A DNA stretch of 64,000 bases, taken from Mobula hypostoma. Taxonomy: Eukaryota. Of this stretch, positions 1 through 21,141 are shown piece after piece. The notes beneath the pieces were generated by a model. It did no database searches. It was not told where the DNA came from and saw only the letters and a list, made by a program, of their open reading frames with translations. The DNA is taken from NCBI RefSeq assembly GCF_963921235.1, contig NC_086107.1:111540001-111604000 (forward strand), given 5' to 3'. The position numbers and the translations under genes were made by a program. Each line of letters starts with the position of its first letter. Position 1 is the first letter of the stretch.

Positions 1-427
1 ATTATTCAGTCCTTCCTCCACATTGTCAAATGCAAGCTGTCAGTTACGGAGATCAAACAGTTCCAAACTGCATTAATGCACTTTAAAGAAGTGATTGAGT
101 AACTGGGGCTGATAATCAGGCCTCACACGCAATCTGCTTCTTGTTTAGGAAGCTCCACAATTGCTTGCAAATATCTACGTGTGCATACTGGGTAAGCTAT
201 CCAAGACCTTTTATAGAAAACAATTAGCTTTATTTCCTCTTCAAAAAGACTCCAAATTAGATTAACTTTATTTGTCCCATGTAAATGAAACATAGAAGCA
301 TACAGTGAAATGGGTCAAGATTTAGGTTTATTTTGCACATTTACATCAAAACATACAGAAAAGTGCGTTGTTTGTGTTGAAAACCAACATAACTAAGTGT
401 TGTGCGTTCAATATTTCAATACTATTT

Positions 428-621
428 GGGGTGTATGGAGTGTCAGGGAGGGGTAGCACCTCTGGTGGGGGAACATGTCGCGTCCTTTTCAGGGCGGTTA
501 GTCCACCTTTGGTCCCCACCTGGCACTCAGCTCTCACCTGTGGCTCCCCGTAGCTATTTGCATACGACAGCGGCCACACCCCGGGCAACGGCTTCGACAA
601 GCCGGCTAAACCAGGTGAGGG
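428..621 (+). ncRNA. Putative HDV-like self-cleaving ribozyme with long J1/2 and an L3 hairpin insertion
   Basis: P1 GGGGUGU 428-434/ACACCCC 576-582; P2 531-541/610-621 (one bulge); P3 GGC 542-544/GCC 573-575; L3 starts UCCCCGU; P1.1 CC 546-547/GG 583-584; GCAA; P4 CGGCUU/AAGCCG; J4/2 GCUAA with candidate catalytic C606. Folded by eye. Confidence 0.65.
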
Positions 622-985
622 TAGCCGACGGGTCTCAAACCCTCGGTGAGATAGGGAGTTGTCTATCCCAGCATGTGAAGACAGACTCCGGCGGATTGAG
701 CGGACGAGACCTATAGAAGGTCCAACGGTCAAGAAGGCGGTCTCTGCAAGCGTTGTGGAACGTGTAGAGCACGACAAGACACGGAAGACGTCCTGATCAT
801 CCACTGCGCCTAGTCCCATCTCCAGCCATCTCGACTCTGTCTTGCCACTGGATCCAGATGGGAATTGGGAAGAGAGAGTGAGGCTGACGCTGCGCATCTC
901 TCCCTCACTTAAATCCAAATCTCGCGCTAGTCTCGACACCATCAATGGTGTCAAGGTCTTCATCGACGACGACGATGGACGAACA
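428..985 (+). mobile_element. Non-autonomous retroposon (RTE-type 5'UTR-derived), full length with TSD
   Basis: TSD actattt(g) at 421-427/8 and 986-992/3. GC-rich structured 5' part, short-repeat tail (gac)n...gaacaa, no credible ORF. RTE assignment is inferred from the architecture. Confidence 0.7.
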
Positions 986-1044
986 ACTATTTGTGTGATA
1001 TCATAAACTTATTGTTTGATTAAGCATTTTTTATAATAATAAAA

Positions 1045-1310
1045 TCACACCGTGGGTTGGCAATGTTTTACAGTGCAGGTGACCCGGGTTCAATTCCCAA
1101 TACTGCCTGCAGGGAGTTTGTACGTTCTCCCCGTGACCGCGCGGGTTTCCTCCGGGTGCTGCACAGTGCAAAAGCGCACCGGTTGGTAGGTTACTTGGTC
1201 GTTGTAAATTTTCCTGTGATTGGGCTGGGGCTAAATCGGAGATTGCTGGGTGCCGTGGCGCGAAGGGCCAGAAGGATCTATTCCACGTTTTTATCTCAAT
1301 TAAATAAGCT
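1045..1310 (+). mobile_element. tRNA-derived V-SINE (HE1-like); related copies at ~21220-21510 (+), ~31100-31345 (+), ~38690-39390 (+, interrupted), ~60960-61170 (-)
   Basis: B-box-like ggttcaattcc; V-domain ggagtttgtacgttctccccgtgaccgcgcgggtttcctccgggtgct; CR1-like 3' tail ending in (taaa)n. Confidence 0.75.
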
Positions 1311-20935: not shown

Positions 20936-21141
20936 TGTTGTCGTTCCTCTCCGTGCCTTGTAGCGCATCGAGTGTCAACCTTGCCATTTCTTTAGCGTTT
21001 ATCTATTTTTACGAGGCTGATTCGTTAGCTCAACACTCAACTCAGCACGGATGGAGAGCGTGCAAGGAGCCGGCCAGATTCGAACCGGGGACCATTCTCT
21101 TCGATGCCCAGTGCAGGTACCACTGCACCACCGGGCGGCCC
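20936..21141 (-). mobile_element. tRNA-derived SINE with RTE-like body/tail; second copy 33646-33847 (-) with TSD atccactct(a/t)tct
   Basis: Minus strand gggccgcccggtggtgcagtggt (A box) ... ggttcgaatct (B box), (caa)n tail; two homologous copies. Confidence 0.75.

What the first reader, a model, noticed from the sequence alone, without database searches (positions are those of the whole stretch)
428..621. HDV-like ribozyme at the exact 5' end of a retroposon, with an unusual hairpin inserted in L3
Seen: the TSD (actattt) places the element start at G428. GGGGUGU (428-434) pairs perfectly with ACACCCC (576-582). That strand is followed by GG-GCAA-C, a 6-bp P4 and G-GCUAA, very close to the HDV core. 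P2, P3 and an L3 starting UCCCCGU are in the correct nested order, and the 96-nt J1/2 is closed by a 10-bp helix (438-447/519-528). Established: HDV-like ribozymes process the 5' ends of R2, RTE and L1Tc retrotransposons, cleaving just 5' of G1. Unusual: about 20 extra nt (553-571, GCUAUU...GACAGC hairpin) lie between the L3 consensus and P3', near the dispensable U27 position of genomic HDV. Inference: this is a structural variant that standard fixed-L3 descriptors would miss. I cannot verify that it is unpublished.
Basis: partly seen in the sequence, partly recalled or inferred. Interest (0 to 1): 0.88.

Follow-up and report, generated by a model that had tools for sequence, protein, structure and literature searches.

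The report
Self-cleaving ribozyme heading a retroposon
The first 194 bases of a short, high-copy retroposon fold like the hepatitis delta virus self-cleaving ribozyme, probably cutting the element's RNA free at its first base, and carry an extra hairpin in a core loop that I did not find described.

Summary
Window 428-985 is one copy of a ~557-nt non-LTR retroposon (family A). A 28-mer from its body matches 4453 places in the 3.48-Gb genome. It has target-site duplications, a variable short-repeat tail (often AAC repeats), random 5' truncations and a sharp full-length start at G428.

Bases 428-621 thread onto the HDV-like double pseudoknot (P1, P2, P3, P1.1, P4) with a catalytic-position C606.

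The same genome holds two diverged relatives. Family B is 66-78% identical. Family C is ~459 nt, together with its ~3.4-kb reverse-transcriptase-encoding parent LINE. All start at the same G.

Between families, P1, P2 and P4 carry compensatory changes on both strands. P3, P1.1 and the C are invariant.

Family C and its LINE have an ordinary 7-nt L3. Families A and B have the same L3 start plus a 4-5-bp hairpin before P3'. The hairpin is therefore a lineage-specific insertion into L3.

No cleavage or RNA evidence exists, no Rfam model matches, and the parent LINE of family A was not found. A ribozyme at the 5' end of LINE-derived non-autonomous elements is known. The L3 hairpin was not found in print.

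The parts
421..427 (+). 5' copy of the target-site duplication ACTATTT. U427 is the -1 nucleotide of the predicted cleavage site.
   Evidence: The same 7-mer recurs at 986-992.
428..434 (+). P1 5' strand GGGGUGU. G428 is the first base of the element and the predicted 5' product end.
   Evidence: Pair 6 is G-C in families A/B and A-U in family C.
435..530 (+). J1/2, 96 nt. A long imperfect hairpin closed by the 10-bp helix 438-447/519-528 (a P1.2-like peripheral domain).
   Evidence: MFE; 20-21 of 21 paired per position in family A. Family C also folds J1/2 into a long hairpin.
531..541 (+). P2 5' strand CUCUCACCUGU.
   Evidence: C538-G614 in A/B becomes G-C in family C.
542..544 (+). P3 5' strand GGC.
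   Evidence: Invariant at consensus level in all families.
545..552 (+). Conserved 5' part of L3, UCCCCGUA. C546 and C547 form P1.1. U545 and G550 sit at the positions of the reverse-wobble pair.
   Evidence: Descriptor in PMC6326823, section 16.
553..571 (+). Hairpin inserted in L3. The family consensus stem is GCUGU/ACAGC. The window copy carries two private changes, A556 in the stem and A564 in the loop; A556 weakens the stem.
   Evidence: Absent from family C and its LINE.
572..575 (+). G572 linker and P3 3' strand GCC (573-575).
576..582 (+). P1 3' strand ACACCCC.
583..588 (+). P1.1 3' strand G583 G584, and J1/4 GCAA.
   Evidence: GG is kept in all families. The rest varies (GGGCAAC, GGUACAC, GGUAAAC).
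589..604 (+). P4 hairpin CGGCUU-CGAC-AAGCCG.
   Evidence: Compensatory changes at 590-603, 592-601 and 593-600.
605..609 (+). J4/2, G-C606-U-A-A. C606 is at the position of the catalytic cytosine.
   Evidence: C and AA are kept in all family consensuses. The base after C is U, or C in subfamily B2.
610..621 (+). P2 3' strand A-(C611 bulge)-CAGGUGAGGG.
622..985 (+). Body and 3' module of the non-autonomous retroposon. It ends ...GAUGGACGAAC plus a minimal tail.
986..992 (+). 3' copy of the target-site duplication ACTATTT.

Best explanation
Window 428-985 is a copy of a ~557-nt non-autonomous non-LTR retroposon. Its first 194 nt encode an HDV-like self-cleaving ribozyme.

Inferred mechanism:
1. 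The element has no recognisable promoter of its own and is transcribed as part of a longer host or read-through transcript.
2. The nested double pseudoknot folds. The structured J1/2 hairpin brings P1 and P2 together.
3. C606 in J4/2, with the L3/P1.1 core, catalyses scission between U427 and G428.
4. The released RNA begins exactly at G428.
5. A LINE reverse transcriptase acting on the 3' module copies it by target-primed reverse transcription. This gives the duplications, the short-repeat tail and frequent 5' truncation.

Shown here:
- the retroposon anatomy;
- the sharp 5' end;
- the fold's conservation and covariation across three families;
- for sister family C, a parent LINE that carries the same ribozyme at its 5' end.

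Inferred, not shown: catalysis, co-transcription, and that the L3 hairpin of families A and B is compatible with activity.

The hairpin is a lineage-specific insertion at the 3' end of L3. Its stem is kept while its loop changes. I read it as an outward-pointing extension helix.
For: Retroposon anatomy
- A 28-mer of the body has 4453 matches at 3 mismatches or fewer, against 0 for the reversed control.
- In 40 copies sampled by that 28-mer, the alignment starts at position 1 in 17, at 2-3 in 5, at 6-14 in 4, and at scattered points 31-430 in 14.
- Upstream flanks of the truncated copies are unrelated, apart from one duplicated locus.
- A duplication of 6 nt or more is flush with G1 in 14 of 21 full-length copies.

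Fold
- All helices are present in the window copy.
- In family A, 16-21 of 21 copies pair at every core position.

Relatives
- Family B: 1428 pattern matches. 18 of the 20 fetched are 66-78% identical to A over roughly the first 380 nt.
- Family C: 1058 candidates, ~459 nt.
- 14 of 14 fetched 5' ends of the parent LINE of family C carry the family-C ribozyme; most start at the same G, and several have changed first bases.
- The LINE has RVT_1 at E = 3.7e-13, 50.1 bits.
- The family-C element equals the first ~375 nt of the LINE plus its last ~65 nt.

Covariation
- P1 pair 6 is G-C in A/B and A-U in C (23 GC and 31 AU of 65).
- P2 538-614 is C-G in A/B and G-C in C (30 CG, 23 GC, 10 GU).
- P4 590-603 is G-C in A and C-G in B and C.
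- P4 592-601 and 593-600 are doubly changed in subfamily B2.
- Tool count on P1 plus P4 over 65 sequences: 87.3% of cells paired, against 82.6 +/- 0.5 shuffled (0 of 500 reach it). 50 doubly changed cells, against 22.6 +/- 4.4 (0 of 500). Slid controls give 30-61%.
- All 28 core pairs in my structural mapping: 93.6% against 89.8 +/- 0.33. 82 doubly changed cells against 39.8 +/- 5.5 (0 of 500 each).

Invariant core and L3
- P3, the CC/GG of P1.1, C606 and A608-A609 are invariant at consensus level.
- L3 is UCCAAGC (7 nt) in C and its LINE. It is UCC(CC/AA)GUA + hairpin + G in A and B.
- The hairpin stem is kept in A, B1 and B2 while the B2 loop differs.

Literature
- RTE, R2, Ingi and other LINE clades carry 5' self-cleaving ribozymes, and their bipartite non-autonomous derivatives keep the LINE 5' end (PMC5786205, passages).
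- A structured J1/2 helix activates large HDV-like ribozymes (PMC4908430, abstract and passages).
Against: - No cleavage assay exists and no RNA run was on record.
- No Rfam family matches families A, B or C, even at E up to 10.
- The plain MFE is not unusually stable (z = -1.62; 16 of 200 shuffles fold as well).
- The compensatory changes amount to about five events among three or four lineages. The sequences are related, so the shuffle statistics overstate independence.
- MAFFT misaligns family C in P2/P3/L3. P2 and P3 counts rest on my own structural mapping.
- 3 of 21 family-A copies have G433A without a compensating change.
- Families B and C, and the LINE, have A where published descriptors fix a C in L3 (U..C-G; PMC6326823 section 16). 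An R2 ribozyme with C-to-A and G-to-A at the conserved L3 sites was inactive in vitro (PMC3774820, figure legend).
- J4/2 is C-U-A-A (C-C-A-A in B2), whereas that descriptor asks for C-R-R-A.
- In contigs of two other coded organisms, 593 T>C is fixed and no change at its partner 600 is listed. The table was truncated.
- L3 is part of the catalytic core (PMC4908430). A 19-nt hairpin there could impair activity, and I found no precedent.
- The parent LINE of family A was not found.
Confidence: 0.75

Rival explanations
1. The sharp 5' end is a transcription start site of an internal promoter (Pol III as in classical SINEs, or Pol II). The HDV-like threading is then incidental, or an inactive relic inherited from a LINE 5' UTR.
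For: A precise common 5' end with flush duplications is equally expected from a fixed start site. L1Tc combines an internal promoter with a ribozyme in the same 77 nt (PMC3383444, abstract). No RNA evidence is available here.
Against: - No tRNA was found.
- No tRNA, 5S, 7SL or snRNA match was found.
- Family A has a TTTT run at 486-489 inside the head. By general knowledge this would tend to terminate Pol III.
- Compensatory changes on both strands of P1, P2 and P4, with P3, P1.1 and the C unchanged, indicate selection on the RNA fold and not on a DNA promoter.
- The fold begins at exactly G1 in three families that are 66-78% identical or less.
Confidence: 0.1
2. The canonical-length version (family C and its LINE) is or was an active ribozyme. 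The hairpin-bearing version of families A and B is catalytically dead or very slow. Their 5' ends would be made another way, for example by a host nuclease recognising the fold.
For: The insertion lies in L3, which forms the catalytic core together with J4/2 (PMC4908430). No L3 insertion was found in print. The hairpin stem shows conservation but no clear compensatory change between families.
Against: - The hairpin-bearing families are the most successful, with 4453 and 1428 matches.
- Family A is the least diverged, at about 4-12% from the window copy.
- Every core feature is kept across A, B1 and B2.
- Family A has the canonical U-C-C-N-C-G start of L3.
- The insertion sits at the 3' end of L3, after the conserved nucleotides.
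Confidence: 0.13
3. Chance resemblance. A GC-rich structured 5' region happens to be drawable as an HDV-like fold.
For: The MFE z-score is unremarkable. There are no Rfam hits. The descriptor was fitted by eye.
Against: Covariation in two helices that cross each other (P1 and P2) plus P4, invariant core nucleotides, and the coincidence of G1 with the element start in three families and one LINE.
Confidence: 0.02

Closest known systems
HDV-like ribozymes at the 5' end of RTE-clade LINEs and their bipartite non-autonomous derivatives (Ruminski et al. 2011, not held here, cited through PMC5786205 passages)
   Same: The ribozyme's G1 is the first base of the element. The non-autonomous derivative keeps the LINE 5' end plus the 3' end, shown here for family C. 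Tails are short repeats, not poly(A).
   Different: Families A and B carry a hairpin inside L3. The parent LINE of family A was not found. The RTE assignment of the family-C LINE rests on RVT_1, a weak endonuclease hit and motifs that I recognise from memory.
R2 ribozyme and its non-autonomous SIDE elements (PMC3774820, sections 15-16; PMC3414825, abstract only)
   Same: A 5' HDV-like ribozyme frees the element RNA from a co-transcript. J1/2 is large and P4 variable. Non-autonomous elements retain the ribozyme.
   Different: R2 is site-specific in 28S rDNA and often cleaves upstream in the 28S. Here insertions are dispersed with varied duplications, and cleavage is predicted at the junction.
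L1Tc/NARTc ribozyme of trypanosomes (PMC3185411 and PMC3383444, abstracts only)
   Same: An autonomous LINE and its non-autonomous partner share a 5' HDV-like ribozyme.
   Different: L1TcRz is 77 nt and doubles as a promoter (Pr77). No promoter function is shown or suggested here. The host is a vertebrate-sized genome.
Genomic and antigenomic HDV ribozymes
   Same: Nested double pseudoknot, 7-bp P1, 3-bp P3 and 2-bp P1.1. L3 starts U-C-C-N-C-G. GGGCAAC follows P1', and J4/2 is C-U-A-A. The last two likenesses are recalled from memory, not tested against a held sequence.
   Different: G1 pairs with C, not U. J1/2 is 96 nt and structured. There is a 19-nt hairpin before P3', and the P2/P3 junction has a bulged C.
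Large HDV-like ribozymes with a P1.2 helix in J1/2 (drz-Agam-2; PMC4908430, abstract and passages)
   Same: A helix closes J1/2 close to P1 and P2 (438-447/519-528; 3 nt from P1 and 2 nt from P2).
   Different: The peripheral domain described there lies in J1/2. An extra helix in L3 is not described there.

Membership tests
HDV-like self-cleaving ribozyme | Nested double pseudoknot in the order P1-J1/2-P2-P3-L3-P3'-P1'-P1.1-P4-J4/2-P2' | tested here: met
   (window copy, all helices perfect). (kept in 65 sequences of three families, with compensatory changes in P1, P2 and P4).
HDV-like self-cleaving ribozyme | Cleavage site 5' of G1, with G1 paired to a pyrimidine at the base of P1 | tested here: met
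   G428-C582. G1 coincides with the element's first base. Feature as listed in PMC6326823, section 16.
HDV-like self-cleaving ribozyme | P1.1: two C-G pairs between L3 and the bases after P1' | tested here: met
   C546-G584 and C547-G583. 61 of 65 and 55 of 63 cells are CG, the rest CA at a CpG.
HDV-like self-cleaving ribozyme | L3 of 7-8 nt with conserved U, C and G (U..C-G) | tested here: inconclusive
   The window copy and family A have U545, C549 and G550. Their L3 is 28 nt because of the hairpin. Families B and C have A at the C position. Family C has the usual 7-nt length.
HDV-like self-cleaving ribozyme | J4/2 with the catalytic C followed by R-R-A | tested here: inconclusive
   C606-U-A-A. 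C and AA are invariant. The base after C is U or C, not a purine. From memory, the antigenomic HDV ribozyme also has C-U-A-A.
HDV-like self-cleaving ribozyme | Match to a curated covariance model (Rfam HDV-like families) | tested here: not met
   No match at the gathering threshold or at E up to 10 for families A, B and C. These models do not hold the pseudoknot or a 96-nt J1/2, so this counts for little.
HDV-like self-cleaving ribozyme | Self-scission dependent on divalent metal and the catalytic C | not testable with these tools
   Needs an in vitro transcription and cleavage assay.
Bipartite non-autonomous LINE (5' end plus 3' end of a parent LINE) | Both ends shared with an autonomous LINE in the same genome | tested here: inconclusive
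   Met for sister family C. For family A, which holds the window copy, no parent LINE was found.
Non-LTR retroposon mobilised by target-primed reverse transcription | Target-site duplications, variable 5' truncation, 3' tail, dispersed copies | tested here: met
Classical Pol III SINE (tRNA, 5S or 7SL head) | Head derived from a small RNA gene with an internal Pol III promoter | tested here: not met
   No tRNA. No Rfam match in 300-1100. A TTTT run lies inside the head.

The most novel reading that the evidence does not exclude
Families A and B represent an undescribed structural subclass of HDV-like ribozymes. An extra helix is inserted into the catalytic L3 loop, turning L3 into an asymmetric internal loop, and the ribozyme is fully active. 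The helix could serve as a handle for a protein or for regulating cleavage. Fixed-L3 descriptors would then have missed such ribozymes in large genomes.
Probability: 0.4. Interest if true: 0.7.

Novelty: new variant of a known kind. Interest (0 to 1): 0.55.

Why it matters
HDV-like ribozymes are usually searched for with descriptors that fix L3 at 7-8 nt, because L3 and J4/2 build the active site. A natural, evolutionarily successful lineage that tolerates a helix in L3 would widen the definition of the family. It would also give a natural test of how much the core loop can be remodelled, and justify new genome searches with an optional L3 helix.

The finding also documents a ribozyme-headed retroposon superfamily in a vertebrate-sized genome: three high-copy non-autonomous families plus a parent LINE. 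Parts of it appear in contigs of four other coded organisms. Part of a large genome's repeat load therefore depends on RNA self-cleavage rather than on an internal promoter.

If the hairpin version proves inactive, this is one more member of a known class.

Tried and rejected
- Rfam at the gathering threshold on the whole window, and at E up to 10 on 300-1100 and on loci of families B and C: nothing relevant.
- ARAGORN on 380-1400: no tRNA.
- Earlier findings of this scan: none.
- RNA evidence: no RNA holder listed. All four runs laid were contigs, which cannot show RNA starts.
- Parent LINE of family A was sought three ways and not found.
  - Shared sequence upstream of 5'-truncated copies: none.
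  - P2' followed by non-family sequence: 10 hits. These led to family C but not to a LINE for family A.
  - The end of the shared 380-nt module followed by non-family sequence: 192 hits, mostly subfamily B2. That last pattern would by design miss about two thirds of possible continuations.
- One search used locus L071 in the wrong orientation and hit an unrelated repeat. The loci asked for could then not be cut.
- MAFFT alignments of all three families (A1, A2) place the L3-hairpin gap wrongly for family C. The pair-counting tool was therefore run only on P1 and P4. P2, P3 and P1.1 were counted with my own mapping.
- Pfam on the first open frames of the LINE gave nothing. Smaller pieces gave RVT_1.
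- Ruminski et al. 2011 (PMC3308841) is not held.
- The claim that U27 of HDV is dispensable could not be checked in the papers read.
- I considered an alternative in which the hairpin itself is P3 and its loop is L3. I rejected it because the loop has no CC to form P1.1 and differs between A and B2.

Full report
**What is in the window**

The sequence at 421-992 reads ACTATTT | GGGGTGT...GATGGACGAAC-A | ACTATTT.
- P1: 428-434 with 576-582.
- GG-GCAAC: 583-589.
- P4: 589-594 with 599-604.
- G-C606-UAA.
- P2: 531-540 with 612-621.
- P3: 542-544 with 573-575.
- L3 begins UCCCCGU at 545.
- The J1/2 closing helix 438-447/519-528 also appears in the MFE fold.

I add one refinement. U541 can pair with A610 if C611 bulges. 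C606-U-A-A then runs straight into P2', as C-N-A-A does in HDV.

The plain MFE is not unusually stable (z = -1.62), and it cannot represent the pseudoknot. No Rfam family matches.

**It is a high-copy retroposon with a sharp 5' end**

The window holds one copy. The 3.48-Gb genome holds many.
- 4217 first-look candidates. All 40 scored align from within the first 8 bases, 29 of them from base 1.
- A 28-mer from the body (860-887) has 4453 matches at 3 mismatches or fewer, against 0 for the reversed control.

I sampled 40 copies by that 28-mer, that is, without regard to the 5' end.
- 17 align from position 1.
- 5 align from position 2-3.
- 4 align from position 6-14.
- 14 are truncated at scattered points (31-430).

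This is the pattern of target-primed reverse transcription. The flanks upstream of the truncated copies share nothing except one duplicated locus.

Among 21 full-length copies (the window copy and 20 of the sample), 14 have a duplication of 6 nt or more that ends exactly at G1. Tails are variable short repeats, often AAC repeats.

There is no tRNA and no small-RNA match. The head of family A contains a TTTT run. It is not a classical Pol III SINE.

The window copy has private changes at 439, 556 and 564. In the family consensus the 'L3 hairpin' is a 5-bp stem, GCUGU/ACAGC.

**Diverged relatives give the comparative test**

Contigs of four other coded organisms carry relatives at 80-95% identity. 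In two of them L3 reads UCCAAGU.

Searching the own genome for that variant gave 1428 matches. Of 20 fetched:
- 18 form family B. They are 66-78% identical to family A over roughly the first 380 nt and start at the same GGGG. An older subfamily B1 and a subfamily B2 can be told apart.
- 2 are family-A variants.

A pattern asking for P2' followed by non-family sequence led to family C.
- It is ~459 nt with 1058 candidates. All 39 non-self matches scored are 89-95% identical to the query.
- 20 fetched 5' ends start GGGGTATA next to unrelated flanks.

One family-C-like locus continued into coding sequence. That sequence has 116 candidates in the genome.

A longer copy (L125) is a ~3.4-kb LINE.
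- RVT_1: E = 3.7e-13, 50.1 bits.
- Endonuclease: a weak hit, E = 0.017, below the cut-off.
- Its motifs look RTE-like to me. This is recalled, not tested.

All 14 of 14 fetched LINE 5' ends carry the family-C ribozyme; most start at the same G, and several have changed first bases. The family-C element equals the first ~375 nt of the LINE plus its last ~65 nt. That is a bipartite non-autonomous LINE as described by Kojima (PMC5786205, passages).

**Covariation**

At consensus level:

| Feature | Family A | Family B | Family C |
|---|---|---|---|
| P1 | GGGGUGU/ACACCCC | as A | GGGGUAU/AUACCCC |
| P2 pair 538-614 | C-G | C-G | G-C |
| P4 | CGGCUU/AAGCCG | B1: CCGCUU/AGGC(G)G; B2: CCGUCU/AGACGG | CCGCU/GGCGG |

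- B2 shows three doubly changed P4 pairs relative to A.
- In B1 the CpG is decayed to CA or TG in individual copies.
- P3 (GGC/GCC), P1.1 (CC/GG), C606 and A608-A609 do not change.
- J1/4 and the base after C606 do change.

The pair-counting tool was run on the MAFFT alignment of 65 sequences, for P1 and P4 only, because those are the only helices MAFFT aligned correctly.
- 87.3% of cells paired, against 82.6 +/- 0.5 in shuffles (0 of 500 reach it).
- 50 doubly changed cells, against 22.6 +/- 4.4 (0 of 500).
- 30-61% paired when the 3' partner is slid.

With my own structural mapping of all 28 core pairs (1803 cells):
- 93.6% paired, against 89.8 +/- 0.33 (0 of 500).
- 82 doubly changed cells, against 39.8 +/- 5.5 (0 of 500).

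These sequences are related. The real number of compensatory events is about five, in three or four lineages. They fall in two helices that cross each other (P1 and P2) and in P4. That is what a double pseudoknot predicts.

**The L3 hairpin**

- Family C and its LINE read GGC-UCCAAGC-GCC, an ordinary 7-nt L3.
- Families A and B read GGC-UCC(CC/AA)GUA-[GCUG(U)...(A)CAGC]-G-GCC.

The hairpin is therefore an insertion at the 3' end of L3, after the conserved nucleotides, and is specific to the A/B lineage.

The stem is kept in A (19-20 of 21 per pair), in B1 and in B2. The B2 loop differs in sequence and length. I saw no clear compensatory change between families in the stem.

An alternative in which the hairpin is P3 fails, because its loop has no CC for P1.1.

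L3 belongs to the catalytic core (PMC4908430). Two full-text searches found no report of an HDV-like ribozyme with a helix in L3. The R2 survey mentions only altered spacing in L3 of one wasp element (PMC3774820, section 16). I could not read Ruminski et al. 2011 or repeat libraries.

**Points against, or open**

- There is no cleavage or RNA evidence.
- Rfam misses all three families, including the one with a normal L3. The miss therefore says little either way.
- Families B, C and the LINE have A where descriptors fix a C in L3 (PMC6326823, section 16). An R2 ribozyme with changes at the conserved L3 sites was inactive (PMC3774820). Family A, which holds the window copy, has the canonical U-C-C-N-C-G.
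- J4/2 is C-U-A-A rather than C-R-R-A.
- 3 of 21 family-A copies carry an uncompensated G433A.
- In two other organisms 593 T>C is fixed without a listed change at 600, in a truncated table.
- The parent LINE of family A was not found.

**Verdict**

The best explanation is an HDV-like ribozyme that defines the 5' end of a non-autonomous, LINE-mobilised retroposon. This is a known kind (RTE, R2 and L1Tc precedents).

The J1/2 helix matches the known P1.2-type peripheral domain (PMC4908430). The helix in L3 is, as far as I could check, a new variant.

- Confidence in a selected HDV-like fold: about 0.85.
- Confidence that the hairpin-bearing version cleaves at 427/428: about 0.7.
- Overall confidence stated: 0.75.

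Noticed in passing
L027, L033, L034, L067 (own genome, contig C1): Composite subfamily. Family-A elements end at element position 517/518, inside the 3' stem-loop, and continue into a tRNA-like SINE module (GCCAGCTGGTGGCGCAGTG...GGTTCGAATCC-like) with an A-rich end. This is 3 of the 40 sampled copies plus one more.
   Followed up: partly
window 1040-1300 (+) and 21006-21100 (-): Other SINE-like repeats lie in the window. The stretch at 21006-21100 is 72% identical to the tRNA-like module of the composite subfamily. The one next to the finding (about 1040-1300) was only seen by eye.
   Followed up: no
window 346-1008, minus strand: A 220-codon stop-free frame runs antisense through the whole element. 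It is probably a compositional accident. Conservation in other copies was not checked.
   Followed up: no
G000 C9:96115864, 96122810, 96129756: Three B2-type elements lie exactly 6946 bp apart, which suggests a tandemly repeated unit that contains the element.
   Followed up: no
L044 and L045 (C1:42751625 and C1:42781470): Two 5'-truncated family-A copies have identical flanks about 30 kb apart. This is a segmental duplication, not two insertions.
   Followed up: no
L125-L138 (LINE 5' ends): 4 of 14 LINE copies (L125, L127, L137, L138) share GGGGTAC, a C at P1 position 7 opposite A. This is a LINE subfamily with a mismatch at the top of P1.
   Followed up: no
run X11 (coded organism E): Contig depth is about ten times higher over window 510-553 than elsewhere, with contigs that stop fitting the window copy at 504 and 547. 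Some contigs skip 465-591. That organism holds more diverged or rearranged relatives (mostly B1-like), and possibly variants that lack the core.
   Followed up: partly
L069 (C5:110187083-110193403): This LINE copy is 5'-truncated by about 40 nt. It lacks about 390 nt that other copies have between query positions 320 and 323.
   Followed up: no
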